Below are positions 4,225-21,358 of a stretch of 29,035 nt of DNA, one piece after another (position 1 is the first letter of the stretch; each line of letters starts with the position of its first letter). The position numbers and the translations under genes were made by a program. Source of the stretch: Candidatus Auribacterota bacterium (GTDB taxonomy: Bacteria > Auribacterota > UBA6266); assembly GCA_023136205.1 (NCBI GenBank), contig JAGLRQ010000019.1, positions 1 to 29,035 of the forward strand, given 5' to 3'. The notes beneath the pieces are model-generated. The model made no database searches. It was not told the DNA's origin and saw only the letters and a program-made list of their open reading frames with translations.

Positions 4225-4971
4225 ATGAAAGATGAGATAAGAGAAGAACTTGCCGGACTGACTCAAAATGTAGGGAAGTATCTCAGGCAGAAGAAAGAAA
4301 ATGGTGAAAAATGGATAGCTTCTTCTGCGAAAGATATCGATAATGGCCGGAAAGTTTCTGAATATAAAAGTGGTTCTCTTTTTGAATCCGAGGTTTTAGA
4401 TGCTGATATAAGTTCTGTAAAAAATCTTGGTGTGCTTAAAGAAATGGTTGAAAAATGCAGGAAATGCCCTCTGGGATCTTTAAGAAATAATTCTGTTTTT
4501 GGGGAGGGTAACTACTCTGCCGATTTGATGTTTGTGGGTGAAGCCCCCGGCAAGGATGAAGATAAGCAGGGAAGGCCTTTTGTCGGCAGGGCCGGTAAGC
4601 TTCTTACTGAGATAATATCCAAAGGCATGGACATGCGGAGGGAAAATGTTTTTATCGCGAATATCCTGAAATGCAGGCCTCCTGAAAACAGAAATCCTAT
4701 GCCTGATGAGATAGAATGTTGTGAGCCATACCTTATAAGACAGATAGAGCTTATAAAACCTAAAGTTATCTGTACTCTTGGAAATTTTGCTTCCCGGACA
4801 CTCATAGGAGTGAAAGATGGAATTACAAAGCTCCGGGGCACCTTTTTTGATTATCACGGGATTAAGTTGATGCCCACCTTCCATCCTGCCTATCTGCTCA
4901 GAAACTATTCAAAGCAAAACAGAATTTACGTTTGGGAAGATATGAAAAAAATTCTTAAAGAATTAAAGTGA
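4225..4971 (+). CDS. Family-4 (4Fe-4S) uracil-DNA glycosylase with an N-terminal extension of about 80 aa
   Basis: CRKCPL ... GEGNYSADLMFVGEAPGKDEDKQGRPFVGRAGKLL ... KCRPPENRNP ... ECCEPYL ... HPAY match the family-4 UDG motifs and the cluster cysteines. The start is 3 nt after the DegT stop. Confidence 0.85.
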   Translation: MKDEIREELAGLTQNVGKYLRQKKENGEKWIASSAKDIDNGRKVSEYKSGSLFESEVLDADISSVKNLGVLKEMVEKCRKCPLGSLRNNSVFGEGNYSADLMFVGEAPGKDEDKQGRPFVGRAGKLLTEIISKGMDMRRENVFIANILKCRPPENRNPMPDEIECCEPYLIRQIELIKPKVICTLGNFASRTLIGVKDGITKLRGTFFDYHGIKLMPTFHPAYLLRNYSKQNRIYVWEDMKKILKELK

Positions 4972-6576
4972 TTCAATATTCAAATCAACGTGCTCTGTAA
5001 GTTTTTCCTTGTCGGCGGGAGATATTTCCTGGAAGTGTATAGCGAAACTCATGCTTTCAAAAATACCTGTGAGGGATGGTATAAATCTTATTATGGGGCC
5101 GCACGCTATCAGGGGCGCGGTGTTTCCCGGCAGGTGTATTTCAAGTTCGGCTAATGTTCCCAGGAGCAGGTTCCCTTTTTTATGGATTGGGACCTGAACA
5201 ACTGCTCCGGCGACGCTAAGGTTAGAAACAATTGAAGGAATTTTTTCCGGCATCAGATCTCTATCTGTTTGCGCGAGTACCTTAAGGTTTGCGGGAAGAT
5301 CTGTATTTATTCTCGCGTATTTTCTTTTATATTTTTTCAGGCCGGTTTCGTTATCAGCGCTTATGTCCTGTCTTGGAGGGCCGGGGTTTACTGCTTCCAT
5401 TTCTTTTAGAAGCATTTGTGCTTTTATATTATTTTCATCAATTTCCAGTAAGCCTTTGCAGATGGCCTGGGATTTTTCCATATTTCCTTCTCTAAAATCT
5501 TTTTCGGCAAGTTCTTCTGAGGCTTCGACAATTCTTATGTCAATATCGGGAAAATCAGGTTTTTCATTTGCTATGGTACTGAAGTGATTTAATGCTTTTT
5601 CATATTCTTTAGTGGACATAAATATATTTCCAAGCCAGTAGTGTGCTTTGGTATTATGACTGTCTATTTCAAGAGCCTTGTGGTAGAAATCTTTTGCCGC
5701 TTCAATATTTTTTTGCCCTTCCATTTTCCTGTAAATATCGCCCAGACGGTTATATAAGCTCGCGCAGTTCTTGTTTATTTTCAGAGCCCCCTGATAAAAT
5801 TCTATTCCTTCTTTCATACTGCTGCCCTTTTTTATGAAACAGCATATGTCTCCGAGAGCTACGTAAGCAGGGAAGTGGTAATCCATCTTAGGCGGCTTGA
5901 GGAGATATTTTGTTTTCTGAGTGCTGACAATGGATAAAAGTATTTTCTCGGCGATATCGTAACAATCGTTACTGATACAGAAAATACTTGCCCTGTACAG
6001 GAGGTCGGTGTACTGGGTGCCGAGGGCTTTACAGATTTCATATACTTCCGCACTGTCTTCTTCTGAAACGATGTAGCATTTTCCGAGTTCTTCCATTATT
6101 AACTGGTCTCTTAAACCAAATTTTTTAAATGCTTTTTCACACCAGAATTTATACTCTTCAGACCTGTATTTTTGATATGGAGTCCATTCTGTATAAAAAT
6201 GGTTTATTAGCATTGATAAGATTTGAGGGGTATCCTTATCTATCTGAATAAGGTTTTTGATGCATTGAATAAAATTATCGTTTAAGTTTGTGATTTTAGA
6301 AGAGACATTATTAATTAACTGCTCGTATTTTTCTATATCTAATCCATATCCAATAGATTTAAGAAGAGCGAGGAAAGAATCTTCATAATTGCCTTTTGTC
6401 AGTTCAATTTGAGAGTTAGCGGCATACACTTCGGCAGCATATGGCCCGGCAGGGGATGGATTTTCTTCGATTTCCCTGATTAATTCAGAGCAGTATTTCT
6501 CTCCAGACGGAAATTCCTTAGCTTCAAGAAATTTCTCAAGCTTCTGTAACTTTCGTTTTTCAGCCTTATCCCTCAT
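4963..6576 (-). CDS. TPR-repeat protein with a C-terminal PilZ (c-di-GMP-binding) domain
   Basis: TPR-like stretches (for example EGIEFYQGALKINKNCASLYNRLGDIY, AKDFYHKALEIDSHNTKAHYWLGNIF, YEKALNHFSTIA). The last 121 aa or so (about 4966-5330) carry both PilZ signature motifs: RKYAR (RxxxR) and NLSVAG (D/NxSxxG). Confidence 0.75.
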   Translation of the reverse strand: MRDKAEKRKLQKLEKFLEAKEFPSGEKYCSELIREIEENPSPAGPYAAEVYAANSQIELTKGNYEDSFLALLKSIGYGLDIEKYEQLINNVSSKITNLNDNFIQCIKNLIQIDKDTPQILSMLINHFYTEWTPYQKYRSEEYKFWCEKAFKKFGLRDQLIMEELGKCYIVSEEDSAEVYEICKALGTQYTDLLYRASIFCISNDCYDIAEKILLSIVSTQKTKYLLKPPKMDYHFPAYVALGDICCFIKKGSSMKEGIEFYQGALKINKNCASLYNRLGDIYRKMEGQKNIEAAKDFYHKALEIDSHNTKAHYWLGNIFMSTKEYEKALNHFSTIANEKPDFPDIDIRIVEASEELAEKDFREGNMEKSQAICKGLLEIDENNIKAQMLLKEMEAVNPGPPRQDISADNETGLKKYKRKYARINTDLPANLKVLAQTDRDLMPEKIPSIVSNLSVAGAVVQVPIHKKGNLLLGTLAELEIHLPGNTAPLIACGPIIRFIPSLTGIFESMSFAIHFQEISPADKEKLTEHVDLNIESL

Positions 6577-6660: not shown

Positions 6661-6688
6661 TTGACAATTTTAAAATCAAGGTTATCAT
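6661..6688 (+). promoter_or_regulatory. Candidate sigma70-type promoter for the 6748 gene
   Basis: TTGACA (6661-6666), a 16-nt spacer, then TATCAT. A purine-rich leader and AGGAGG (6738-6743) follow. Confidence 0.4.
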
Positions 6689-6747
6689 TGATCATAAAGA
6701 AAAAGGGCAAAAGCAGAAAAAGAAAAGTAAAAAAAGCAGGAGGTAAT

Positions 6748-7752
6748 ATGAAAAACAGGGCTATTAATGTATCCTCTATTGTTTTTGTGGTATTTATGTT
6801 TCTTCTTTCAACAGTATCGTACGCGGCTGAAAAGCTTTCTAAGGAAGAGGAAATGCAGAATCTACATGCTACAGCTCTTTTGTCGCTTACGAATGAAAAT
6901 TTAGCAAGCGCTGAAAAATCTTTTAATTCAGCGGGAAAAATTGCCATTTCTATTAAATCCTGGCCCGGATGCGTGGAATCCGGTTACGGACTTTTAGCAT
7001 GTAACAAACCTGAGGACGGAATAAAGTTTTTTGAGAAAGCGAATAGTTTTTCATCCGAAAAAAATGACTGGCGCGGATGCCTTTCAGCGGGCGTTGTACT
7101 GGTAAATCTTCCGCCTGGCCTTGGCACGTATAACAAGGGGATAAGTTTTCTTATAAATGCCAGGACAGTCTCGGAAAAAACAGAAGACTGGCGCGGATTA
7201 ATTGAAACCGCAAAGATTGCCGTAAAAGTAAAAGATGTTGAACTGGCTTCCGCCTGTCTTAAGTCCTCTAGAAGAATAGCTGAAAATGAAGAGAGCAGTT
7301 CGGGTTTGAGGGAATCCGCTCGTTTGTTTAAGCAGATTGGAATGAAAGGGGAAGCCAAAGAGTGTTACGAGCTTGCGAAAAATTTTAAGGATGATTCAAA
7401 GCAAATAGTTCCTCCTCCTCCGGGCTGGAAAGCAGCGGGGGAAACCGTTGCGGGGCCTAAAGAAATTTCACCTGAAACCCAGAAGGCCCTCAGAGCGTCT
7501 GCCGATATGCAGATAAAGGAAAATCTCGCTTATGAAAAACAGCAGGAAAAGCTTAAGGTGGAAAAACAAAAGATAAGTGCCGAAAGATACCGGTATGCTA
7601 ATACGTACACCCCGTATTACAGCTATCCTTTCCCTTCTTCCCGCCGTTGGTCTCCGTTCGGTTATACTTATATCAGCAATTGGGCCAGTACCAGATTAGG
7701 CTTCTATTATCAAACCGGCGGAAGTTATTACCGGCTTAACTATTGGAGATAA
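6748..7752 (+). CDS. Secreted protein of unknown function (helical W-x-G repeats, Pro-rich linker, Tyr/aromatic-rich C-terminus)
   Basis: I chose the ATG at 6748, 4 nt after AGGAGG, rather than the TTG at 6661 given in the track. Signal-peptide-like N-terminus MKNRAINVSSIVFVVFMFLLSTVSYAAE. Repeated motif KSWPGCVESG / NDWRGCLSAG / EDWRGLIETA. I recognise no family. Confidence 0.65.
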   Translation: MKNRAINVSSIVFVVFMFLLSTVSYAAEKLSKEEEMQNLHATALLSLTNENLASAEKSFNSAGKIAISIKSWPGCVESGYGLLACNKPEDGIKFFEKANSFSSEKNDWRGCLSAGVVLVNLPPGLGTYNKGISFLINARTVSEKTEDWRGLIETAKIAVKVKDVELASACLKSSRRIAENEESSSGLRESARLFKQIGMKGEAKECYELAKNFKDDSKQIVPPPPGWKAAGETVAGPKEISPETQKALRASADMQIKENLAYEKQQEKLKVEKQKISAERYRYANTYTPYYSYPFPSSRRWSPFGYTYISNWASTRLGFYYQTGGSYYRLNYWR

Positions 7753-10241: not shown

Positions 10242-10270
10242 TTGACATTTATTTGTTTTTGTAAAAAATA
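10242..10270 (+). promoter_or_regulatory. Candidate promoter for the lectin-RHS cassette
   Basis: Perfect TTGACA at 10242-10247, followed 16-17 nt later by an A/T-rich -10-like element (AAAAAT / AAAATA). This would give an untranslated leader of roughly 170-180 nt before the ATG at 10449. Confidence 0.35.
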
Positions 10271-10448
10271 GTAGTACCCATCTGTGATAAAATCAACGTT
10301 TGGCTAATGTTTTATGTATTTGGAATAATCCATCTAAGCTAAAGAAAGTTTTTTAAATGTTACCTAAAGGCTGCACTAAACCTTTCCGCTTTACACCCCA
10401 AGTAAAAATTATAATATCGGCCTTTACTTAAATCACAAGGAGAGCATT

Positions 10449-12692
10449 ATGTGTTTTTTAAAACGATTAATAATTTTAACTGTCTTTTCCTTTTTGATAG
10501 CCCCATTGTCTTCCGCCCAGGAAAACTTAATTCTGGATGCCGGATTTGAACAATCTCCTCATTCTTCCGGGGTAAACTGGAAGGATTGGGGGCCGGGAAC
10601 AAAAGATTTTGACAATACAGAGGAGGTTCATTCGGGAACTGAATCTTATAAACTAACGGTATCTGTTTCAACTTATATGTGGGCAAGTGATATTGCGTTA
10701 CAGGAAAATATAACAGACTTCCTGGTTGGAGACAGTTTTGAAGCAGAAGCCCATTTATTAATACCGGAATCTAATCCCCTTACTGAAGATATAGAAACCT
10801 ATTTAGAGGTTGTATTTTATGATGGGCAGGGTATAAACGCGGAAAACGAAGTCGGCAAGTTCCAATCTCAGAAATACGGCTATGGCCAGGCTCAGAGTCA
10901 GTGGGTAAAACTTGAAATAAGCAATGTTGTTCCCCTTGGGGCTCAGAATTGCAAACTTCAGCTCGTGGTTTTACATTTACCGGACGAGCAGGGGCAGACA
11001 GGTAACTATTCAGGGGTAGTATATTTTGATGATGTGAGTTTAATTAAAACAATATCAAAGAAGACCACGGCTGTTTCTTCTTCAGATGAAAATTTTAACT
11101 TAATGGCAGAGAAAACTGTAGACAACAATATTGCAACCCGCTGGGCATCCGCTCATACAAATAGCGAATGGATATATCTTGATTTAGGTTCACCCCGCGC
11201 CTTTGACACCGTTAAATTGAGCTGGGAGACAGCTTATGCTGCAAGCTATGAGATTCAAATTTCAAATGATGCTCAGAATTGGAGCACTATTTATACTGAA
11301 AATTCGGGTAACGGAGGTGAAGACGTAATTCACCCTGGAGAACAAACTGCCCGATATATCAAGATGAAAGGCCTTATCAGGGGTACAGAATGGGGTTATT
11401 CTCTCTGGGAATTTGAAATTTCCAAATCCGCGGCTTCTTCATCGGAGTCTGCCGGGTTAGAAGCTTATAGAGCCGCGGATGGTGATATGAATACTCGCTG
11501 GGCATCAGCATTTAGTGATAATGAATGGATATATATTGATTATATGAACTCCAGGGCGTTTGACACTATTGAGTTAAACTGGGAGTCCGCGTATGGCCGC
11601 CAGTATGAAATTCAAGTCTCAGATAATGGTATCAACTGGACAAATATTTATACTGAAACAAACAGTAATGGCGGTGTAGATATAATTAATGTCGATAAAC
11701 AAAGCGCCAGATTTGTCAGAATGAATGGCATTTCCAGGGCAACGCCTTATGGATATTCTCTCTGGGAATTCAAAACCATGATGCGGATGACAGCAGTTTC
11801 TTCCTCTGATGAAAATTTATATTTAACGGCTGATAAAGCTATGGATGGCAACTTTAATAGCCGCTGGTCATCAGCATTTACTGATAATGAATGGATCTAT
11901 ATTGATCTTAGTGCCCCCCGCAGTTTTGATACGGTTAAATTAACTTGGGAAACGGCTTACGGATTGGCTTATGAGATACAAATTTCAGATGATGCCCAAA
12001 ACTGGAATACAGTTTATACAGAAACTTCAGGTGATGGGGGCGAAGATGTCATTTTCCTTGGGACGCAGACCGCCCGATATGTCAAGATGCAGGGTATTCA
12101 AGGGGGCACGGAATGGGGCTATTCTCTCCGGGAATTTGAAGTGTTAGGAACAACCACTGTTTGCGGCTATGAGAAAAGAATTAACTGCGGAGGTGAAGTT
12201 TACACTGCCCGGAACGGTGATTTTTATGCCGCTGATCAACAATATTCAACTCAAAACGGCTGCGGATATGTTGACGGAAACTGGGCTAGTACTTCTGATT
12301 CCATAGAAGATACGGAAGATGATATTCTTTATCGGTCAGAACGCTACAATGTAGGCGAATATAAATTTGATGTTCCGGATGGAACTTACACGGTTACTTT
12401 AAAATTTGCTGAAACCTATTTTACAGGCGCGGGAAAAAGAGTATTTAGTGTCTGGATAGAGGGAGAGCAAGTTCTGCAGAATCTAGATATTTATGCTGCG
12501 GCAGGCCATGACACTGCTTTAGACAAAGAATTTACTGTAAAAATTTCAGATGGCCAATTGAACATTACCGCTCTTGCCGCAAGAGACTGTGCTAAATTTT
12601 CAGCTATATCAGTTGTCGGCGGGCGTGATGTAACACCTCCAAATTTGACAATAATATCACCGAATAACGGAGCAGTTATATATCAGGATTAA
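10449..12692 (+). CDS. Secreted multi-lectin protein: CBM4_9-like module, three F5/8 type C (discoidin/CBM32-like) domains, malectin domain. No catalytic domain is seen.
   Basis: AAGGAGAG RBS. Signal peptide MCFLKRLIILTVFSFLIAPLSSA/QE. NLILDAGFE...HSGTESYKL...VYFDDVSL resembles CBM4_9. Three repeats carry TRWAS...EWIY(L/I)DL...FDT(V/I)KL.WE.AY...YEIQ(I/V)S.D..NW...Y (discoidin). The C-terminus INCGG...YAADQQY...RSERYN...YKFDVPDGTYTVTLKFAETYF...KRVFSVWIEGE is malectin-like. Confidence 0.85.
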   Translation: MCFLKRLIILTVFSFLIAPLSSAQENLILDAGFEQSPHSSGVNWKDWGPGTKDFDNTEEVHSGTESYKLTVSVSTYMWASDIALQENITDFLVGDSFEAEAHLLIPESNPLTEDIETYLEVVFYDGQGINAENEVGKFQSQKYGYGQAQSQWVKLEISNVVPLGAQNCKLQLVVLHLPDEQGQTGNYSGVVYFDDVSLIKTISKKTTAVSSSDENFNLMAEKTVDNNIATRWASAHTNSEWIYLDLGSPRAFDTVKLSWETAYAASYEIQISNDAQNWSTIYTENSGNGGEDVIHPGEQTARYIKMKGLIRGTEWGYSLWEFEISKSAASSSESAGLEAYRAADGDMNTRWASAFSDNEWIYIDYMNSRAFDTIELNWESAYGRQYEIQVSDNGINWTNIYTETNSNGGVDIINVDKQSARFVRMNGISRATPYGYSLWEFKTMMRMTAVSSSDENLYLTADKAMDGNFNSRWSSAFTDNEWIYIDLSAPRSFDTVKLTWETAYGLAYEIQISDDAQNWNTVYTETSGDGGEDVIFLGTQTARYVKMQGIQGGTEWGYSLREFEVLGTTTVCGYEKRINCGGEVYTARNGDFYAADQQYSTQNGCGYVDGNWASTSDSIEDTEDDILYRSERYNVGEYKFDVPDGTYTVTLKFAETYFTGAGKRVFSVWIEGEQVLQNLDIYAAAGHDTALDKEFTVKISDGQLNITALAARDCAKFSAISVVGGRDVTPPNLTIISPNNGAVIYQD
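11064..12149 (+). repeat. Three tandem coding repeats of about 360 bp, each encoding one discoidin domain
   Basis: Repeat units are about 11064-11426, 11427-11786 and 11787-12149. Units 1 and 3 are visibly closer to each other (TTAVSSSDENFNL / MTAVSSSDENLYL; DAQNWSTIYTENSGNGGEDVI / DAQNWNTVYTETSGDGGEDVI) than either is to unit 2. Confidence 0.85.
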
Positions 12693-12705
12693 AAGGAGAT
12701 AGCGC

Positions 12706-15700
12706 ATGAAATTATACATAAAAATCTTTCTATTTTTTATTTCGGTTTTCTTGATAAATGATTTTGTTTTAGCTGAAGAAGATAATACATATAGTTTGCT
12801 TCCCCAGAATGCGTATGGGGTATTGGATATTCATGGCGCCCCGATACCACCAAAAAATCCAAAAGATTTACTGCAGGTGGATGTTCCTCATGAAGATACT
12901 GTCCGTGTTAATCTTTCAACCGGCAAACTGACTGTGAAAACAACTGAGTTTGATGTGCCATGCAGGGGACACGATAAAGAGTTGGCTCTGAGTTTTAGCC
13001 GGACATATGGTACCGGAACAGTAACTGGTGAAAATTTATTAGGGGTCAGTTGGAAAACAAATCATGATGTTACCATGCATGTTTTTGCCAACTATGATCG
13101 TGAGACCGGTGAACCTGTCTACAGATTAATCAATATTTCCACCAATAAAGGCCATACCCAGTTCCAGTGCTTTGTTCATGACATAGATTACTATCAGCCT
13201 ATGGGAAGGTCCAGCAGGCAAACGAAACTATTTGAAGGTGAACCTGAACCTAAAAGGCTTGACGATCCTTACCCAATTACCTATGTATGGCGGACAAAAC
13301 ACGGCATGAAATATTATTTTGAGCCCTATTATATCTACCTTACTTCCGGGCAGGTTGATGTGGAATCTGTAGATTATAGATTAAAGAAGATGGAAGATAG
13401 GAACGGGAATACGCTGGAATACACTTACCTATGCCATGGAGGTAAACTTGGTGAGGCTGTGGAGGCAACACCTGTTACTAGAATTGATGATGGGACACCA
13501 GGTATTGATGTTACTGAGTTTGGGTCCAGCATTCTTCGTGAATTGAGGACTTTCTTTGCTGTTGACCTTGAGTATGTTTCTGAACAAGCAGCCGCAAAAT
13601 TCTTTGCAATAAGAAACAGGAGGCCTTCTAGGCTGACAGATGTAGCTACCGGAAGGTATATAGAGTTTACATATTATCCCAGTTTTAGTGTTGATGATAT
13701 AAAAAAAGGGTTACTGCAAACAGTAACCGATCCTGCAGGCAATGAATACAATTTTGATTATATGGAGGTTAGCCATCCAGTTGGAAGTCACCCGTACTTG
13801 TATACTGTTCAGAAACCCGGCTTATCTAATTCTGCAATGTACGCACGTTCTTATTTTGGTGACCTTTCAAGCATGACCGATCCCCTGAATAACACGATTA
13901 ATGCAAAATACGATGTTAGACTGAGAGTTTACCGCGTTACCTTATCCAATGGTACATACTTTGATTTGGATTATTTCGATATCAATTCTCCTCTAAATGT
14001 CCATGTAACATATAGTGACCGTCCCAATGTAAAATTGGTTTATAAATTTGATCATGAAGGCAGATTAAATGGCTTGGAGACATGGGAAAACGAGGTAAAG
14101 ATATGGTATGAGTGGTACTCCTGGGAGAATTCGCGAGGCCCTCAGTTTTTCACTAATCTTTTAAGCGCAGGTGAAAGCGGCTGCGGCTCGCCTTATTTGT
14201 GGACATATGAAGGTGATAGCGAGAACCCTGTAACACATTCCATACCCGGCAATAGGAAAAAGCTCTATACGTATAATGAATTTCATAAGGTAACTAAAGA
14301 AGAATTAACCAGATGGTCAACAGGAGAAGTTTTAAAAGTAACGGATTTTGTTTATGACGTTAACGGAAACCTTACCTCAAAAATCGAAGATTCCGGAGGC
14401 CCCAACGAAATAATAACAAATTATGCTTATGATGAATTTGGAAACAGGACAAGTGTTACGGATCCCAATGGAAATACAACAACATTTACTTATGATGATT
14501 GCGGCAATGTTTTAACATCTACGGATCCTGAGGGAAATATTACATCTTACACATATGATATAAACGGCAATAAATTATCTGAGGCCGATGCCCGAGGTAA
14601 CGTTACAGCTTACGAATATGATGCTTTAAACCGTCTTGAAAACATTACCTTTCCCGCGGAGGATGGTATTCTTGAGCCGCCTCTAAAAACATATGTATAC
14701 GATGATAACAGTGATGTTAAATCTATAACCGACGAAAATGGAAACACAACCGAATATCAGTATGACAGTAACACCCGGTTGTATAGAGAAATAGACCCTC
14801 TGGGTTATTTTGTGGAGTATGGATATGACAGTACTGGAAATGCCGTTCTTAAGAAGGACAAAAATGGTAAATCAATTTTATACGGCTATGACGCGTTAAA
14901 CAGAAAGGTAATCGAGGCAGATTGTCTCGGTGAAACCACTACATATTCCTATGGGGATCTTTTTACAAGATGTGGTTCGGCTATGTTCGAAGGTTCTTCG
15001 TTTAATCCAACAGCTATTACAGATAAAAGAGGAAATATTACTGAGTATCAATATAACAACCGTTACTGGCTGCAGTTTATCAGGTATCCGGGTATTGAAG
15101 GGTATGAAGAACATTTTGAATACGATGTTTTTGGGAATAAGACCCTATGGATAGATCCAAACGACCGGTTTTGGAGATATTATTATGACAACGTAAACCG
15201 TCTTGTAAAACAGACAGATCCTGTAAACTACGATATCCTTTATGGGTATGATAATAACGGCAATAAAACAAGCGAAACCGATAAGAGAGGAAACATAACA
15301 AATTTTGAGTATGATGGAAACAACAGGCTTAGGAAGGCAATCGACCCTTATTTTGAATATACTGAATATTTTTATGATGGAGTTGGGAACAAGATATCCG
15401 AGCGGGATAAAAGGGGAAACTATACTAATTTTACCTATGATAAACGCAATCGTTTAGAAGAAGTTATAACAGAACCTGAAACAGGTGTTACATACACAAA
15501 AACTTACGAATATGATGATAAAGGCAATAAAACCGCTGAAGTAGATGAAAACGGCAACAGGACTGAATATACCTATACGACGCGTGACGAACTCTGGACA
15601 CTAAAAGATGCTTATAATAACAGTATTTCATACTTGTATGATGCCAATGGAAATAAGGATTCCGAAACGGATAAGAAAGGAAATACTACGGCTTACTTAT

Positions 15701-15918
15701 ATACAAACCGCAATGAACTTTCAAGTGTTACAGATCCTCTGGCCAATTCAATAAACTACACTTATGATGAAAACGGAAATAAGCAAACTGATACAGACAA
15801 AAGAAATCTGACAACTAGCTTTGGCTATGACGAAAGAAACCTTCTTATTTCAGTAACAGACCATGAGGAGAACATCAGCTCTTTTACCTACGATGGAAAC
15901 AAACCCTCTTCTTCATGA
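12706..15918 (+). CDS. RHS/YD-repeat protein, N-terminal ORF (signal peptide plus first part of the shell). Probably the 5' part of one frameshifted gene.
   Basis: AAGGAG lies 7 nt upstream and the gap to the lectin gene is 13 nt. Signal peptide MKLYIKIFLFFISVFLINDFVLA/EE. RHS-type N-terminal strand VNLSTGKLTVKTTEFDVPCRG...LSFSRTYGTG. Many YD repeats follow (YAYDEFGNRTSVTDPNGNTTTFTYDDCGNVLTSTDPEGN...). Confidence 0.85.
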   Translation: MKLYIKIFLFFISVFLINDFVLAEEDNTYSLLPQNAYGVLDIHGAPIPPKNPKDLLQVDVPHEDTVRVNLSTGKLTVKTTEFDVPCRGHDKELALSFSRTYGTGTVTGENLLGVSWKTNHDVTMHVFANYDRETGEPVYRLINISTNKGHTQFQCFVHDIDYYQPMGRSSRQTKLFEGEPEPKRLDDPYPITYVWRTKHGMKYYFEPYYIYLTSGQVDVESVDYRLKKMEDRNGNTLEYTYLCHGGKLGEAVEATPVTRIDDGTPGIDVTEFGSSILRELRTFFAVDLEYVSEQAAAKFFAIRNRRPSRLTDVATGRYIEFTYYPSFSVDDIKKGLLQTVTDPAGNEYNFDYMEVSHPVGSHPYLYTVQKPGLSNSAMYARSYFGDLSSMTDPLNNTINAKYDVRLRVYRVTLSNGTYFDLDYFDINSPLNVHVTYSDRPNVKLVYKFDHEGRLNGLETWENEVKIWYEWYSWENSRGPQFFTNLLSAGESGCGSPYLWTYEGDSENPVTHSIPGNRKKLYTYNEFHKVTKEELTRWSTGEVLKVTDFVYDVNGNLTSKIEDSGGPNEIITNYAYDEFGNRTSVTDPNGNTTTFTYDDCGNVLTSTDPEGNITSYTYDINGNKLSEADARGNVTAYEYDALNRLENITFPAEDGILEPPLKTYVYDDNSDVKSITDENGNTTEYQYDSNTRLYREIDPLGYFVEYGYDSTGNAVLKKDKNGKSILYGYDALNRKVIEADCLGETTTYSYGDLFTRCGSAMFEGSSFNPTAITDKRGNITEYQYNNRYWLQFIRYPGIEGYEEHFEYDVFGNKTLWIDPNDRFWRYYYDNVNRLVKQTDPVNYDILYGYDNNGNKTSETDKRGNITNFEYDGNNRLRKAIDPYFEYTEYFYDGVGNKISERDKRGNYTNFTYDKRNRLEEVITEPETGVTYTKTYEYDDKGNKTAEVDENGNRTEYTYTTRDELWTLKDAYNNSISYLYDANGNKDSETDKKGNTTAYLYTNRNELSSVTDPLANSINYTYDENGNKQTDTDKRNLTTSFGYDERNLLISVTDHEENISSFTYDGNKPSSS

Positions 15919-18607
15919 AACAACTTATACTTACAATAGCTTAAACCGCCTTAAAACAAATACCGATGCCGAAAACAACGCAATAACCAACTATTATGAT
16001 GAAAACGGTAATCTTTCGGCGGTTATGGACGCGAATGGCAAGGTTACTTTTTATGAATACGACAAATTAAATCAGATTATAGAAGTTGCGGACCCTGAAA
16101 ATGGCAACAGTGGAGCGATAGAATACAGCTACGATGAAAATGGCAATAAAATTTCCATGAACGACCAGAGAACAGAAGACAATATTACAACTTATGAATA
16201 TGATGCTTTAAACCGTCTTATAAGCAATATAACTCCGATGTGGAAATTAACTACCTATGAATACGACGGAGTCGGCAACAGGATAATCCAGGAAGACGCG
16301 AATGGGGATACTATAACTTATACATATGATAAGCTGAATAGACTTGAACAAAAAACCTATATTGATTCTACCACTGTTACATATGTCTATGATGAAAATT
16401 CCAACCGCACGCGAATGGTTGACGGCACAGGAGTATATAACTATGAGTATGATGAGTTAAACCGCCTAATCTCGGAACAGTCACCCAGCGGGACAAAAAG
16501 TTACTCTTACGATGAAAATGGAAACCGCGATTTTCTTGGATATTCAGGCGGAAATATATTTTATGAATATGACACTTTAAATCGCCTGTTTAGAATAACA
16601 GATGCGGATGGAGAGATTACTCAGTATGAATACGATGATGCCGGAAGGGTGATAAAAACTGTTTATCCGAATGAAATTCAGACAGGTTATAGTTATTTTG
16701 ACAACAACTGGTTAAAAACATTAACTTCGCTTTTTAACGCTGTAAACATTTTTGATATTGAATACACTTATGACAATGTCGGCAACAAGATTTCAATGAT
16801 AGAAAAACATGTCAGCCCGGTTGCCCTTACTTCGTATGAATATGATAATTTATACCGGTTAACACAAGTAACTTATCCCGACAGTCTGATTGAAACCTAT
16901 ACCTATGACGCGGCAGGAAACCGTCTCACAAAAAGTAATGGCGCCTCCAATGAGGTGTATGTTTACAATGATGATAACGAATTAACAACAAGGCATGTTT
17001 TTGGCCAGGGAACAGGCGAGATAACAGTTACAGGAACAGTTAGAGATGACATAAAAGTTGACAGGGTGATAGTTAATGGTATTTCGGCGGTAATAGAAGG
17101 AGATAATTTTCATCAAACGATTTCTGTTACAAGCGGACAAAACACTATAACTGTAGCAGCTTATGACACATCGGGAAACAATGTCGCGAAATCACTGAGT
17201 ATTACCTATTTAGCATCGGGTGATGATATGTATAATTATGAGTACGACACTAATGGAAACACAACCAAAATAACAAAGAACAATGAAGATACTATCTTTA
17301 GTTATGATTATGAAAACAGAATGATTGGGGCAGTTACTCCTGCGGGAGCGCAAATAACATATGCTTATGACGGAGATAAGAGAAGGTATTCGAAAACTGT
17401 CGATGGAACAACTACTAAATTCCTCTATGACGGTATAAACATTCTTGCCGACCTTGATGGAAGCGGAGCAATTACAAAAGAATATACCCAGGGTCTTGGG
17501 ATAGATTCATTGATTAAAGCAACGGATGGAGAAAATCCCGAATACTATCATTCTGATGCTCTCGGTTCAACAAGGGTTATAACTAATGCAAATGGAAATA
17601 CAGTAAAAACCTACGATTACGACGCTTGGGGTAAAGTAACAAACGAAACCGGTTTATCAGAAAATGAATATACCTATACCGCAAGAAGAGTTGAAGATGA
17701 ATTAAACTTAATGTATTATAGAGCCAGGTTTTATGATACGGAAACAGGAAGATTTTTGCAGAAAGATCCTTTGACCGGCGGCCCTGATGATCCGAGGATT
17801 TGTTACAAAACTAATATTTACTCGTTCTTTGACAGAGTAATAACTGAAAGTATCAAATCCTTAGACCCGCATAATACTAATAGGTATGTTTACTGTAGGA
17901 ATAATCCGATTAATTACACTGATCCGTTGGGATTGGAAATAATTACCGGACTGGCAGTATATTTCACAGCGCTGACAACTTCTCCTGATTTTTATACAGA
18001 CTGTCAAATGCTTTCTCAGTCCTTAGCCGAAGGTGATTATGTAGGCGCTACCGGTGATTTGGTTGGGTTGGCAATACCTGCTGTGTCAAGCGCAATGACT
18101 CGACCGGCTGCAAAAAACGGCGCAAGGTTAGGCAAAAAAGCTTTGTCGGGTATTGCTGAAGGATTTTCAAAACTTGCGGAGAAGTTTGCGACTAAGTTTG
18201 GAGATGATGTTACAAAAGCAGTTACAAGAAATATTGATGAAGCTACTCAGGGAATTGCAAAAGGGAAGAAACTGCTAAATAAAGCAGATGATGTGGCGGG
18301 AAAAGGTCGAACGGTTATTGGTAAAATGGATGATTTGAACAAACCTGGTGCATTGAAAAAAGGGGAGAAATTATTAGATTTGCCAGATATGGGAAGCCCT
18401 AAAGCAAACTGGAAACAGAACGCTAGCAAATTACGTAAAACAATGAGAGAAGGAAAACCAATTAGAGATGCTTCAGTGACTAACAAAGGAAACTTGAGAA
18501 GCAATACAGGATTTTTACGGCCCGAACGAAATCTATTAGAAAATAAAGGGTGGAAATATAATAAACGACCAAGGTTATGGAAACCTCCTAGGAAAAAGTT
18601 AAAATGA
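15863..18607 (+). CDS. RHS/YD-repeat protein, C-terminal ORF: shell repeats, Ig-like insert, RHS repeat-associated core, DPLGL boundary and a variable C-terminal toxin domain
   Basis: YD repeats run throughout. The core region is YHSDALGSTRVITNANGNTVKTYDYDAWGK...YYRARFYDTETGRFLQKDPL...NRYVYCRNNPINYTDPLGL. The ATG at 15863 has no RBS and lies inside a repeat, so it is probably not an independent start. Confidence 0.85.
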   Translation: MRRTSALLPTMETNPLLHETTYTYNSLNRLKTNTDAENNAITNYYDENGNLSAVMDANGKVTFYEYDKLNQIIEVADPENGNSGAIEYSYDENGNKISMNDQRTEDNITTYEYDALNRLISNITPMWKLTTYEYDGVGNRIIQEDANGDTITYTYDKLNRLEQKTYIDSTTVTYVYDENSNRTRMVDGTGVYNYEYDELNRLISEQSPSGTKSYSYDENGNRDFLGYSGGNIFYEYDTLNRLFRITDADGEITQYEYDDAGRVIKTVYPNEIQTGYSYFDNNWLKTLTSLFNAVNIFDIEYTYDNVGNKISMIEKHVSPVALTSYEYDNLYRLTQVTYPDSLIETYTYDAAGNRLTKSNGASNEVYVYNDDNELTTRHVFGQGTGEITVTGTVRDDIKVDRVIVNGISAVIEGDNFHQTISVTSGQNTITVAAYDTSGNNVAKSLSITYLASGDDMYNYEYDTNGNTTKITKNNEDTIFSYDYENRMIGAVTPAGAQITYAYDGDKRRYSKTVDGTTTKFLYDGINILADLDGSGAITKEYTQGLGIDSLIKATDGENPEYYHSDALGSTRVITNANGNTVKTYDYDAWGKVTNETGLSENEYTYTARRVEDELNLMYYRARFYDTETGRFLQKDPLTGGPDDPRICYKTNIYSFFDRVITESIKSLDPHNTNRYVYCRNNPINYTDPLGLEIITGLAVYFTALTTSPDFYTDCQMLSQSLAEGDYVGATGDLVGLAIPAVSSAMTRPAAKNGARLGKKALSGIAEGFSKLAEKFATKFGDDVTKAVTRNIDEATQGIAKGKKLLNKADDVAGKGRTVIGKMDDLNKPGALKKGEKLLDLPDMGSPKANWKQNASKLRKTMREGKPIRDASVTNKGNLRSNTGFLRPERNLLENKGWKYNKRPRLWKPPRKKLK
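15895..15918 (+). other. Frame discontinuity inside the RHS gene (the +1 frame is needed to continue)
   Basis: Frame 1 reads FTYDGNKPSSS*, with the stop at 15916-15918. The next frame reads ...NPLLHETTYTYNSLNRL and continues the YD repeats. Deleting one base from the ggaaacaaaccc run (15895-15906) joins the two frames seamlessly. Confidence 0.8.
17936..18604 (+). other. RHS C-terminal variable domain (223 aa after DPLGL), the predicted toxin, family not recognised
   Basis: It starts directly after DPLGL (17921-17935). I see no HNH/GHH/AHH, deaminase (C/HxE...PCxxC), ART or Walker A motif. It contains GDYVGATGDLVGLAIP, which could be a pre-toxin TG-like segment. The tail KRPRLWKPPRKKLK is very basic. 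Confidence 0.6.
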
Positions 18608-19203
18608 ACAAAAGAACCGAACTTAATTTTGCGAAAGAAGTAATATCTACTTTCGATTTTTTGACGAAAGAATATAATTTTCGTTTAGTAGGAACAGATT
18701 GTTTATACGTAGTTAGATATGAATCTAATTTGGTTTTTATTAATATCTATCACGAAAAGATATCATATGAATTAGGATTTTCAATAGGATTATTAAGTGA
18801 TAAAGAAAAAAGAGGATATACTATTGATGAGTTGGTTAGGTTGAAGGATTTGGGAGCGGAAAAACAACCGATATTTTTTCAAGCCAGTACAAAAAAGGAT
18901 GTAAAACATTGTATTCAGGAATTATCTAAGCTTGTTAAACAAAATGGAGGCTTAGCTTTAAAAGAAGATCGTAGTGTATTTGTGCATCTTGATCGTATAA
19001 GAGAGGATTTGGGAAGCAAACAACAGAGAGAATATGAGCTAAGACAAGTTAGAAAAGAAGCACAAGAATTCTGGAAAAAGAAAACATATGATAGATTGAT
19101 AGAATTATATAGCTCTATTTTTGACGATTTAACTCAGTCAGAGATTAAAAAATTGATTTATGCTAGAAACCAGTTAAAAAAAATTGGGCTTAACAAATTG
19201 TAG
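18604..19203 (+). CDS. Candidate cognate immunity protein (199 aa, cytoplasmic, no recognised family)
   Basis: Its ATG overlaps the RHS stop (ATGA at 18604-18607). It sits immediately 3' of an RHS toxin domain. It has no signal peptide or TM segment. Its composition is markedly AT-rich. Confidence 0.6.
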   Translation: MNKRTELNFAKEVISTFDFLTKEYNFRLVGTDCLYVVRYESNLVFINIYHEKISYELGFSIGLLSDKEKRGYTIDELVRLKDLGAEKQPIFFQASTKKDVKHCIQELSKLVKQNGGLALKEDRSVFVHLDRIREDLGSKQQREYELRQVRKEAQEFWKKKTYDRLIELYSSIFDDLTQSEIKKLIYARNQLKKIGLNKL

Positions 19204-19229
19204 TGAAAAGGGAAAAGAGGGGAGAGATA

Positions 19230-19868
19230 ATGAAAGCATTGAAGATTACTGTATTTATTCTGGCTTTACTTGTTCTTGCGACACAGGTTGCTCGACATGT
19301 ATACGTGCGATATCTCGAACCAAGGACGTCGGTTTTGGATAAGTTTGAGGAAACTGAAACAAAGAAGGTAATTCAAAGGGCAACGACCCTTTCTGAGCTT
19401 GTAGAGGAATATGATCCTGCTAGGAAACGCGTTGATCAGCTTGATAAAGAGATGCAGATAGAATTGTCTAAAAAGAATAGCGATGATTATTATATGTTTG
19501 AAGAAAAGTGGAAAGAGGATTATAAGCAAGAATACCAACAGGAAGAAGAACTAAAGTCGGCAATTCAGGATTGGGAGGAAAAAAGCAAAGAAATCCGAGA
19601 GCTATACGTATTCTGGGCGTTCGGATTGTTCTTCTTTGCAATTGGCATATTTATGCTAAAGAAAGGTTTCAACTGGATTGGCATGGCATTTATTATTCCT
19701 GGTATTGTCGAGATGATTTGGTGGACAAGCCCCTCATTTCGTTTTGCAGGAAGCCCTCTTGAATTCGATCGACTGCTTAATAATAAGTTGGGGTTCACCA
19801 TTGTTACACTTGTCGTATTTATAACTGTGTGGTATTTTAGTGAATCAAAAAGAAAAAAGAATCTCTAA
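19230..19868 (+). CDS. Multi-pass membrane protein of unknown function with an acidic, coiled-coil-like segment
   Basis: The ATG at 19230 is preceded by AGAGGGGAG. The track start at 19203 is a GTG that overlaps the previous stop by one base. Hydrophobic segments: ITVFILALLVLATQV, LYVFWAFGLFFFAIGIFML, WIGMAFIIPGIVEMIWW, LGFTIVTLVVFITVWYF. Confidence 0.6.
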   Translation: MKALKITVFILALLVLATQVARHVYVRYLEPRTSVLDKFEETETKKVIQRATTLSELVEEYDPARKRVDQLDKEMQIELSKKNSDDYYMFEEKWKEDYKQEYQQEEELKSAIQDWEEKSKEIRELYVFWAFGLFFFAIGIFMLKKGFNWIGMAFIIPGIVEMIWWTSPSFRFAGSPLEFDRLLNNKLGFTIVTLVVFITVWYFSESKRKKNL

Positions 19869-20220
19869 CAAGAAGAAAAGAAGACGCTTCTATTAAATAA
19901 CTTCTTGACGCCAAAATCCCCCATGCGGATGAATATCTGGTGTATTTTTTTTAATAATGCGGTTGTATTATAACCCTCCCAGAGTAGCTCTGTTTTTAAA
20001 TTATTCAGATCAAATAAGGGGAAGGCAAGCAAGGCACTTTCATTCGGCACATCCGATAATCTAGGGATTATCCGACGTGTTTTTCTGTCACAAAAGCTGC
20101 TAAAAGAAAAAGCATCTTTTGCGCCAGAAAAATACCCTCACTCCGTTAGACATAACTGGTTATGTCTCCTTTTATAGAACATTTTCTCTGACCCGAGTTT
20201 TTATCACACTACATTTTCTC

Positions 20221-21358
<1,138 letters not shown>

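What the first reader, a model, noticed from the sequence alone, without database searches (positions are those of the whole stretch)
10242..19868. Four-gene lectin + Sec-dependent RHS + toxin/immunity + membrane-protein cassette between priA and the tgt operon
The four genes are co-directional and packed like an operon. The lectin stop at 12692 and the RHS ATG at 12706 are separated by 13 nt containing AAGGAG. The RHS stop and the next ATG share ATGA at 18604-18607. The next gene begins 0-27 nt after the TAG at 19201-19203. Both large proteins have classical cleavable signal peptides. The RHS protein has no PAAR, VgrG, LXG, TPS/haemagglutinin or TcB/SpvB-type N-terminal module, and nothing else in the window encodes T6SS, T7SS or Tc components. 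The upstream partner consists only of glycan-binding modules. My inference is that the lectin acts as a dedicated targeting or adhesion subunit for an encapsulated RHS toxin, by functional analogy to receptor-binding TcA with the TcB/TcC cocoon. To my knowledge that pairing is not a described delivery mode. The flanks are core genes and tgt-yajC-secDF is a conserved operon, so this looks like an accessory insertion.
Basis: partly seen in the sequence, partly recalled or inferred. Interest (0 to 1): 0.85.

Follow-up and report, generated by a model that had tools for sequence, protein, structure and literature searches.

The report
Secreted RHS toxin locus with lectin partner
An uncultured Candidatus Auribacterota bacterium carries a known kind of bacterial toxin locus (a signal-peptide RHS "cocoon" toxin plus its immunity gene) in which the sugar-binding part is a separate upstream gene rather than part of the toxin protein, and the toxin gene is broken by a frameshift in every assembly that covers the site.

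Summary
The cassette is real and the gene junctions are as described. The RHS gene, however, is not one ORF. A +1 frameshift at about 15901-15918 splits it into 12706-15918 and 15863-18607, and every assembly covering the site shows the same split.

It is a Sec-type RHS/YD polymorphic toxin locus from a Candidatus Auribacterota (Aureabacteria) MAG. The RHS protein has a signal peptide, a long YD shell, an Ig-like insertion, an Rhs core with DPLGLE, and an uncatalogued ~100-aa toxin domain. Homologues of the next gene follow the same toxin domain on unrelated contigs, so that gene is the cognate immunity gene.

The upstream gene encodes a secreted lectin (3x CBM32/discoidin plus malectin). A CBM_4_9 domain was not detected. 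Lectin-13 nt-RHS is conserved in three diverged copies, all from this lineage. It was not seen in 78 other RHS loci.

Sec-exported RHS toxins, and discoidin domains fused into RHS proteins, are already described. In one metagenomic RHS the discoidin module sits at the shell site where this RHS carries its Ig-like insertion. The lectin as a partner acting in trans is therefore plausible. The TcA analogy and the claim of an undescribed delivery mode are overstated.

Verdict: a new variant of a known kind, probably inactivated here.

The parts
10242..10269 (+). Promoter-like site (TTGACA, 16 nt spacer, AAAAAT) upstream of the lectin gene.
   Evidence: It is a consensus match only; 39 such sites were found in the region against 33.9 expected.
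10449..12692 (+). Secreted lectin, 747 aa. It has a signal peptide (aa 1-24, SSA|QE), an unassigned N-terminal domain (aa ~25-205), 3x F5/8 type C (CBM32/discoidin, aa ~205-566) and a malectin domain (aa 577-711).
   Evidence: The closest solved structures are the chitosan-binding CBM32 modules 4zy9/2rv9 (E 7e-33) and malectin 2jwp (E 3e-17).
12624..12689 (+). C-terminal 22-aa tail of the lectin (RDVTPPNLTIISPNNGAVIYQD). It resembles the first strand of a Glucodextran_B/Big-type Ig-like domain.
   Evidence: appending the tail to the RHS Ig-like insertion extends the Pfam match from profile positions 19-80 (43.7 bits) to 1-80 (55.0 bits); the chimera aligns colinearly with the intact Ig domain of P0003; the tail is conserved in all three copies.
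12693..12705 (+). 13-nt spacer containing the AAGGAG ribosome-binding site.
   Evidence: The same 13-nt spacing occurs in L001, L005, L009 and L014.
12706..15918 (+). RHS ORF1, 1070 aa. It has a signal peptide (aa 1-23, VLA|EE), a weak DUF6531 match (aa 68-125), a region that is hypervariable between copies (aa ~101-400) and YD/RHS repeats.
15857..15918 (+). +1 frameshift window (overlap of frames 1 and 2). The most likely cause is a 1-nt insertion in AAACCC at 15901-15906, which would restore ...FTYDGNKPLLHETTYTYNSLNRL....
   Evidence: The sequence is identical in L005, L008 and L009, and all cluster members are split.
15863..18607 (+). RHS ORF2, 914 aa from the first ATG and with no signal peptide. 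It holds the remaining YD shell, the Ig-like insertion, the Rhs core, a linker and the toxin.
17015..17209 (+). Ig-like (Glucodextran_B-type) insertion in the YD shell. It is ORF2 aa 385-449, or aa 1437-1501 of the repaired protein.
   Evidence: In L007, RHS copies carry an Ig + discoidin module at the equivalent position.
17618..17938 (+). Rhs-associated core domain ending in the autoproteolysis motif DPLGLE.
   Evidence: TIGR03696, E 2e-18, ORF2 aa 586-691; sequence; profile hits to TcC, RhsA and teneurin cores.
18302..18604 (+). C-terminal toxin domain of ~100 aa, alpha+beta, with no Pfam family. The conserved pattern is VIGK..DL...GE..L.LPD.GSPKANW.QN..LR..M..G.PIRD.S...N.GFL.AERNLL.N.GW.
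   Evidence: 11 homologues, several on RHS-core proteins; no Pfam hit at E<=10; pLDDT ~90; no similar solved fold.
18604..19203 (+). Cognate immunity protein, 199 aa, cytoplasmic, with no Pfam family.
   Evidence: homologues at 32-34% identity lie directly downstream of the homologous toxin domain in L093 and L094.
19230..19868 (+). Membrane protein, 212 aa from ATG 19230 (221 aa from GTG 19203). It has three hydrophobic segments and a central coiled-coil-like region. Its membership in the cassette is unproven.
   Evidence: No homologue lies next to the related toxin/immunity pairs.
19980..20005 (+). Terminator-like hairpin followed by a T run, inside the 390-nt gap before tgt.

Best explanation
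This is a Sec-type RHS/YD polymorphic toxin-immunity locus of a Candidatus Auribacterota bacterium. Its glycan-binding (adhesion or targeting) module is encoded as a separate, translationally coupled upstream gene instead of being fused into the RHS protein.

Shown:
- The lectin and the RHS N-terminus both look like Sec substrates.
- The RHS protein (about 1966 aa if read through) has a YD shell, an Rhs core ending in DPLGLE, and a ~100-aa toxin domain shared with other RHS-core proteins.
- Homologues of the next gene follow that same toxin domain on unrelated contigs, so the next gene is the cognate immunity gene.
- The lectin-RHS pair is co-inherited in three diverged copies.

Inferred:
- After Sec export, the lectin supplies in trans the role that discoidin modules play in cis in other RHS proteins. 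It would bind surface glycans, either on target cells or on the producer, and so hold the cocoon at a cell surface.
- The toxin would be released by core autoproteolysis and act in the cytoplasm, since the immunity protein has no signal peptide.
- How the proteins cross the outer membrane, and how the toxin enters a target cell, is unknown.

In the sequenced population the RHS gene carries a +1 frameshift at about 15901-15918. The toxin arm is therefore most likely inactive, or made only at a low level by ribosomal slippage.
For: - Domains.
- Signal peptides, by heuristic and by conservation.
- The toxin domain is shared with 11 proteins, several of them RHS-associated.
- Immunity homologues sit downstream of the homologous toxins.
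- Lectin-13 nt-RHS occurs in three diverged copies, and one MAG (GCA_023139245.1) holds two of them.
- Cis fusions exist. L007 RHS copies carry an Ig + discoidin module between the positions equivalent to residues 1406/1417 and 1501/1510, exactly where this RHS has its Ig-like insertion at 1437-1501. P0017 combines 3x discoidin, fn3, an Rhs core and a toxin. One of 25 signal-peptide RHS relatives has F5_F8_type_C in cis, and others have CBM, PKD or Big modules.
- Literature: PMC3482391 and PMC13018210.
Against: - The frameshift is present in all assemblies. ORF2 has no signal peptide and no evident ribosome-binding site.
- There is no direct evidence that the lectin and the RHS protein interact.
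- The pairing is found in only one lineage, so co-inheritance could reflect operon inertia.
- More distant lectin homologues sit next to glycosidases, not RHS genes.
- The route across the outer membrane is unknown, and the rest of the genome could not be searched for T6SS or T2SS genes.
Confidence: 0.55

Rival explanations
1. The locus is a decaying relic. The +1 frameshift inactivates the RHS toxin, so only a signal-peptide-bearing 1070-aa shell fragment is made. The lectin, the immunity gene and the membrane protein persist for other reasons, for example as an orphan immunity gene protecting against kin that still carry the toxin. This can be true together with the best explanation, which describes the ancestral function.
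For: - The frameshift is identical in at least four assemblies from several samples.
- No ribosome-binding site precedes ATG 15863 or ATG 15893, and ORF2 has no signal peptide.
- NCBI annotates two separate RHS proteins.
Against: - Both halves are otherwise intact over 1070 and 914 codons, and the immunity gene is intact, so any inactivation is recent.
- The shift site AAA-CCC-U contains a CCC-N proline codon context. From my own knowledge this context is prone to +1 slippage, so some full-length product is possible.
- No intact allele was available for comparison.
Confidence: 0.5
2. The lectin is an independent secreted glycan-binding protein, for example for polysaccharide foraging or adhesion. 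It merely shares a promoter with the RHS gene, with no physical or functional partnership.
For: - The closest non-orthologous lectins (P0003, P0004) lie next to a GH116 glycosidase that carries a discoidin domain, not next to RHS genes.
- Most homologues are glycoside hydrolases with CBM32 modules.
- No lectin neighbour was found at 78 other RHS loci.
Against: - The 13-nt coupling is retained in three copies although the RHS N-terminal region has diverged to 45-63% identity.
- The pair occurs twice in one MAG.
- Discoidin modules are fused into RHS proteins elsewhere at the equivalent shell site.
- The lectin has no catalytic domain.
Confidence: 0.25
3. The RHS protein is delivered by a dedicated contractile or specialised system (T6SS, T7SS or Tc-like) encoded elsewhere in the genome, and the N-terminal hydrophobic segment is not a Sec signal.
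For: Most characterised Gram-negative Rhs effectors depend on T6SS (PMC8765631 and PMC8636562, listed). The rest of the genome could not be inspected.
Against: - No PAAR, prePAAR, VgrG, LXG, TPS or SpvB/TcdB module was found.
- The N-terminus has a classical n-h-c signal-peptide layout and is conserved in all three copies.
- About 30 of the nearest RHS relatives in many phyla also start with signal-peptide-like sequences.
- Sec/T2SS RHS toxins are a recognised class.
Confidence: 0.07

Closest known systems
Sec/T2SS-class RHS polymorphic toxins, for example Bacillus subtilis WapA (class defined in Zhang et al. 2012, PMC3482391)
   Same: An N-terminal signal peptide, RHS/YD repeats, an Rhs core with a DPxGL cleavage motif, a variable C-terminal toxin and a downstream immunity gene. 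There is no PAAR, VgrG or LXG module.
   Different: WapA carries its cell-wall-binding anchor in cis, and its host has a single membrane (own knowledge). Here the host belongs to the PVC group, which I presume has two membranes. The RHS protein has no recognisable anchor or adhesion domain apart from an Ig-like insertion, and the glycan-binding module is a separate gene.
RHS toxins with discoidin, RicinB or bulb-lectin domains fused in cis
   Same: Discoidin (F5/8 type C) modules are combined with an RHS shell or core and a toxin. In L007 the module is inserted at the shell position equivalent to the window's Ig-like insertion.
   Different: In the window the lectin is a separate polypeptide with its own signal peptide, encoded 13 nt upstream. 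It contains malectin and an unassigned N-terminal domain in addition to discoidin.
Bacterial teneurin-like proteins (TLPs; Raoelijaona et al. 2026, PMC13018210)
   Same: Sec-targeted YD-shell proteins that encapsulate a polymorphic C-terminal toxin, with adjacent immunity genes and N-terminal adhesion or anchoring modules. Their delivery mechanism is unknown. The YD region of this RHS matches the TLP structures 9ifo and 9pt5.
   Different: The defining FN-plug, NHL propeller and TIP domains were not detected here. Auribacterota is not among the six phyla reported. The adhesion module is in trans.
Tc (ABC) toxins: receptor-binding TcA plus the TcB-TcC cocoon.
   Same: An RHS cocoon with an aspartyl-autoprotease core encapsulating a toxin (one search hits TccC3 and YenC2 cores), plus a separately encoded partner proposed to bind the target surface.
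   Different: The lectin has no TcA-like pore or translocation channel. The RHS protein has no SpvB, FG-GAP or TcdB_mid elements. Both proteins here carry Sec signal peptides, whereas Tc components do not (own knowledge).

Membership tests
RHS/YD-repeat polymorphic toxin | Multiple RHS/YD repeats forming a shell | tested here: met
   PF05593 gives E 1.7e-63 (ORF1) and 2.4e-51 (ORF2), and TIGR01643 also matches. There are matches to solved Rhs, Tse5, Tre23 and TLP structures.
RHS/YD-repeat polymorphic toxin | Rhs-associated core domain ending in a DPxGL autoproteolysis motif | tested here: met
   TIGR03696 gives E 2.1e-18 at ORF2 aa 586-691, and the sequence reads ...NYTDPLGLE.
RHS/YD-repeat polymorphic toxin | Variable C-terminal toxin domain followed by a cognate immunity gene | tested here: met
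   The toxin domain is shared with 11 proteins. Immunity homologues follow it in L093 and L094. Toxicity itself was not tested.
RHS/YD-repeat polymorphic toxin | One continuous reading frame from the N-terminus to the toxin | tested here: not met
   There is a +1 frameshift at 15857-15918, identical in all assemblies.
Sec-dependent (T2SS-class) polymorphic toxin | Cleavable N-terminal signal peptide, with no other trafficking domain | tested here: inconclusive
   An n-h-c layout with VLA|EE was found by a hydrophobicity heuristic and is conserved in three copies. No other trafficking domain was found. No trained predictor or experiment was available.
T6SS-dependent Rhs effector | N-terminal PAAR/prePAAR or VgrG-interaction module, with T6SS genes in the genome | tested here: not met
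   No PAAR or VgrG domain is in the protein or the window. Whole-genome T6SS content is not testable with these tools.
Tc (ABC) toxin complex | A TcA pore-forming subunit, plus a TcB with SpvB, FG-GAP propeller and TcdB_mid regions | tested here: not met
   The lectin contains only CBM32 and malectin domains. The RHS protein has no SpvB, FG-GAP or TcdB domains.
Bacterial teneurin-like protein (TLP) | FN-plug + NHL propeller + YD-shell superfold, with a TIP domain at the N-terminus | tested here: inconclusive
   YD-shell matches are present. No NHL or FN-plug was detected by Pfam in aa 1-565. No structure model of the N-terminal region could be made.
CBM32/discoidin + malectin lectin | F5/8 type C and malectin glycan-binding folds, a signal peptide and no catalytic domain | tested here: met
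   PF00754 x3 (E 1e-63) and PF11721 (E 3e-33) match. There are matches to solved CBM32 chitosan-binding modules and to malectin. Glycan binding itself was not tested.
   No Pfam family matched aa 1-217 at E<=5, and there was no solved-structure match in that region.

The most novel reading that the evidence does not exclude
The lectin docks onto the RHS cocoon by completing a split Ig-like domain. Its conserved 22-aa C-terminal tail (TPPNLTIISPNNGAVIYQD) would supply the missing first strand of the Glucodextran_B-type Ig-like insertion in the YD shell, by donor-strand complementation. That would rebuild in trans the shell-inserted Ig + discoidin display module that other RHS proteins (L007) carry in cis at the same position.

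The evidence allows this reading but does not require it:
- The tail and the insertion together give a full-length 1-80 profile match at 55.0 bits, against 43.7 bits for positions 19-80 from the insertion alone.
- The chimera is colinear with the intact Ig domain of P0003.
- By eye, at least one unrelated RHS (P0134) has a similar insertion that also lacks the first strand.
- The tail could instead be a remnant of a truncated domain.
Probability: 0.12. Interest if true: 0.7.

Novelty: new variant of a known kind. Interest (0 to 1): 0.4.

Why it matters
How Sec-exported RHS/YD cocoon toxins reach a target without a T6SS, T7SS or Tc injector is an acknowledged open question. PMC13018210 says this explicitly for bacterial teneurin-like proteins. 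A locus where the glycan-binding module is a separate, co-inherited protein would allow targeting and toxin encapsulation to be separated experimentally. The match between the Ig-like insertion site here and the site where other RHS proteins insert discoidin modules points to a common external display position on the shell. The value is limited: the toxin gene is frameshifted in every assembly covering the site, the organism is uncultured, and the pairing has been seen in only one lineage.

Tried and rejected
- **Wider family of the RHS N-terminal region.** Scans of genome contigs and metagenome contigs with an alignment of three N-termini found nothing. An exhaustive HMMER search of 1.84 billion representatives found only P0121, plus three weak YD-repeat hits. 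The pairing could therefore not be tested outside this lineage.
- **Split-Ig test by AF2.** A single-sequence model of the tail + insertion chimera had pLDDT 36.6 and is uninformative.
- **Comparison of Ig-like insertions across other RHS loci.** phmmer found no similar insertion in the 78 loci. A site-spanning alignment was confounded by the repeats.
- **Synteny and accessory insertion.** A PriA-based metagenome scan returned only relatives at <=48% identity (best segment), with no tgt, yajC, secDF, lectin or gene-4 homologue nearby. There are no flanking direct repeats, tRNA genes, Rfam families or integrase.
- **My own discoidin and malectin profiles.** They found nothing in the 78 RHS loci. 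They are narrow, however: they missed the one F5_F8_type_C domain that Pfam detects in cis in one relative. The negative result therefore applies only to close homologues of this lectin.
- **CBM_4_9 in the lectin N-terminus.** Not detected.
- **Programmed frameshift.** No Shine-Dalgarno-like stimulator lies at the right distance and there is no long homopolymer. It is kept only as a low-probability option.
- **Literature on Auribacterota.** The Ace Lake paper mentions no secretion systems, RHS proteins or lectins.

Full report
**Observation.**
- The lectin stops at TAA 12690-12692. Thirteen nucleotides follow (AAGGAGATAGCGC), then the RHS ATG at 12706.
- The RHS stop and the next start overlap in ATGA at 18604-18607.
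- TAG lies at 19201-19203. The fourth gene starts at GTG 19203 or, more plausibly, at ATG 19230 behind GAGGGGAG.
- Coordinate 10242 is the -35 hexamer of a promoter-like match. The lectin ORF starts at 10449.

One important feature was missed: the RHS gene is not one ORF. Frame 1 ends at TGA 15916-15918 and the protein continues in frame 2. The two frames overlap only at 15857-15918. Removing one base from AAACCC (15901-15906) restores a normal YD repeat...FTYDGNKPLLHETTYTYNSLNRL....

**The frameshift is real in the population.**
- L005 comes from another sample and differs from the window by 6 SNPs and no indel over 7618 nt. It is identical across the frameshift site.
- L008, L009 and the 90%-cluster members are all split into 1070 aa plus 904 or 914 aa.
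- NCBI annotates two RHS proteins, MCK4946911 and MCK4946912, in a Candidatus Aureabacteria (Auribacterota, PVC group) MAG.
- ORF2 has no signal peptide and no convincing ribosome-binding site.

**Domains.**
- Lectin: Pfam gives 3x F5_F8_type_C and one Malectin domain. The nearest solved relatives are chitosan-binding CBM32 modules and malectin. The N-terminal ~200 aa match nothing, so CBM_4_9 is not confirmed.
- RHS protein: RHS/YD repeats in both halves, a weak DUF6531 match near the N-terminus, a Glucodextran_B-type Ig-like insertion (repaired residues 1437-1501), an Rhs_assc_core ending in DPLGLE, and about 225 further residues.
- No PAAR, VgrG, LXG, TPS or SpvB/TcdB module is present. The rest of the window holds sugar-nucleotide enzymes, UDG, a TPR-PilZ protein, priA, tgt, yajC, fused secDF, recJ, recG and rsmD.
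- Both the lectin and ORF1 begin with a K/R n-region, a strongly hydrophobic h-region and a small-residue cleavage motif. The RHS signal peptide is conserved in all copies. This rests on a heuristic, not a trained predictor.

**Toxin and immunity.**
- The last ~100 aa form a domain found at 41-64% identity in 11 other proteins. Several of these carry Rhs-core sequence upstream of it.
- The domain has no Pfam family, even at E<=10. AF2 models it confidently as a small alpha+beta domain. No solved structure resembles it.
- In two unrelated contigs, the gene directly downstream of a homologous toxin is 32-34% identical to the window's 18604-19203 product. This supports a cognate immunity protein. 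It lacks a signal peptide, which implies a cytoplasmic target.
- The fourth gene (three hydrophobic segments) has no counterpart at those loci, so its membership in the cassette is unproven.

**Is the lectin linked to the RHS gene?**
- Within the lineage, yes. L001 has the lectin (80% identical), then 13 nt, then an RHS gene (66% identical), with queA upstream.
- L014, from MAG GCA_023139245.1, has a malectin C-terminus (93% identical), then 13 nt, then P0121 (64% identical).
- That same MAG also holds a window-type copy (P0138 with P0146). The pair therefore exists either as two paralogues or as two co-binned strain variants.
- P0121 and the L001 RHS are 75% identical, so there are three distinct versions.
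- Divergence is mosaic. RHS residues 1-100 and beyond 500 are 72-90% identical between copies, while residues 101-400 drop to 45-63%.
- Outside the lineage, the RHS N-terminal 520 aa has no detectable relatives.
- The next-closest lectins (P0003, P0004) neighbour a GH116 glycosidase, not an RHS gene.
- In 78 RHS loci from reference genomes, no close homologue of this lectin lies within 10 kb. Ten upstream neighbours scanned with Pfam were heterogeneous: a U32 peptidase, CstA, a PKD/T9SS-tail protein, FG-GAP, one weak CBM_4_9 match and several unknowns.

**What is already known.**
- About 30 of the RHS relatives that have complete N-termini begin with signal-peptide-like sequences, across Chloroflexota, Clostridia, Bdellovibrionota, Acidobacteriota and other groups. 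An RHS protein with a signal peptide and no injector module is therefore common.
- Zhang et al. 2012 list Sec/T2SS as a trafficking class for RHS toxins. [quoted passage not shown]
- Bacterial teneurin-like proteins are Sec-targeted YD shells with adhesion modules and immunity genes. Their delivery mechanism is stated to be unknown.
- Among 25 signal-peptide RHS relatives, individual members carry F5_F8_type_C, CBM_4_9, a cellulose-binding domain, PKD, Big or cadherin modules in cis.
- P0017 fuses 3x discoidin and 2x fn3 directly to an Rhs core and toxin.

**A structural clue.**
- In L007, three RHS copies carry discoidin domains embedded in the shell; the one copy read in full has Ig-like, 2x discoidin, Ig-like.
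- Mapping onto the repaired window RHS places that module between residues 1406/1417 and 1501/1510. The window's Ig-like insertion lies at 1437-1501. This shell position therefore appears to be a display site for glycan-binding modules.
- The lectin ends 22 residues after its malectin domain with TPPNLTIISPNNGAVIYQD. This looks like the first strand of a Glucodextran_B/Big-type domain.
- The RHS insertion matches the Pfam profile only from position 18-19, even when its native upstream residues are included. Tail plus insertion matches positions 1-80 at 55.0 bits, against 43.7 bits for the insertion alone. That equals the score of the intact domain in P0003. The chimera is colinear with that domain.
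- The tail is as well conserved as the folded domain: 19 of 22 residues in L001 against 76% identity overall.
- This raises the possibility of docking by strand complementation. The evidence is thin. A single-sequence AF2 model of the chimera was uninformative. By eye, at least one unrelated RHS (P0134) has a similar insertion without a first strand. The tail could also be a remnant of a truncated domain.

**Most likely mechanism.** This is a Sec-type RHS polymorphic toxin with its immunity gene. The adhesion or targeting lectin is encoded in trans and co-exported. It binds surface glycans and so positions the cocoon. The toxin is released by core autoproteolysis. The steps shown are domain content, the toxin-immunity pairing, and co-inheritance of the lectin and RHS genes. 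The steps inferred are the lectin-RHS interaction, the direction of binding (target or producer), crossing of the outer membrane, and entry of the toxin. In this population the toxin arm is probably inactivated. Low-level +1 slippage at AAA-CCC-U is conceivable (own knowledge of CCC-N slippage) but unsupported.

**Accessory insertion.** This was not demonstrated.
- There are no flanking repeats, tRNA genes or integrase.
- G+C content falls to 0.33-0.36 over the toxin and immunity genes. That is typical of exchangeable toxin modules.
- In E. coli, queA-tgt-yajC-secDF is one operon (own knowledge). The queA upstream of the L001 lectin is therefore compatible with the cassette lying between queA and tgt in that genome, that is, at a conserved position rather than through independent mobility. 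The L001 contig ends before this can be checked.

**Verdict.** The locus is a new variant (trans-encoded lectin) of a known kind (Sec-exported RHS toxins with glycan-binding modules), probably non-functional here. Interest is moderate.

Noticed in passing
window 13006-13905 (RHS ORF1 aa ~101-400): Divergence between RHS copies is mosaic. Residues 1-100 and beyond 500 are 72-90% identical between the window, P0121 and L001, but residues 101-400 are only 45-63% identical. This may be a surface under diversifying selection or a recombination patch.
   Followed up: partly
window 10455-10618 and 11644: All six SNPs between the window and L005 fall in the lectin gene. Five lie in the signal peptide or the first domain, and none is in the RHS gene.
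   Followed up: no
L014 and the GCA_023139245.1 contigs holding P0138/P0146 and P0141: One MAG holds two different lectin-RHS copies: a window-type copy (>=90% identical) and a second copy whose RHS is 64% identical. These are either paralogous loci or co-binned strains.
   Followed up: partly
L007 7110-21746: This is a metagenomic contig with about three tandem, frameshift-ridden RHS copies, each with discoidin modules embedded in the shell. It lies next to divergently oriented secretin genes (Secretin, Secretin_N).
   Followed up: partly
L006 3117-6834: P0017 combines 3x discoidin, 2x fn3, an Rhs_assc_core and a C-terminal domain, apparently without a YD shell. An overlapping 96-aa ORF follows it and may be an immunity gene.
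   Followed up: partly
window 18302-19203; L093 4745-5624; L094 4646-5554: This toxin domain and its immunity family are both absent from Pfam. In L093 the pair sits beside a phage-type integrase, and in L094 beside a DDE transposase and further RHS fragments.
   Followed up: partly
window 17939-18300: About 120 aa lie between DPLGLE and the toxin domain. They are predicted helical at low confidence, include moderately hydrophobic stretches, and give a weak SseC-like match (E 0.003, below the Pfam cutoff). This could be an entry or translocation segment.
   Followed up: no
window 19869-20257: The 390-nt gap upstream of tgt has a terminator-like hairpin at 19980-19992. It has no Rfam match, and no preQ1 riboswitch in particular.
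   Followed up: partly
window 6661-7752 (+) and 4963-6576 (-): A 363-aa ORF with a TTG start matches no Pfam family. Next to it, on the opposite strand, is a 537-aa TPR + PilZ protein.
   Followed up: no
L001 456-1484: In the 80%-identical relative, the gene upstream of the lectin is queA rather than priA. Both neighbours of the cassette in the two genomes (queA and tgt) are queuosine-pathway genes.
   Followed up: partly
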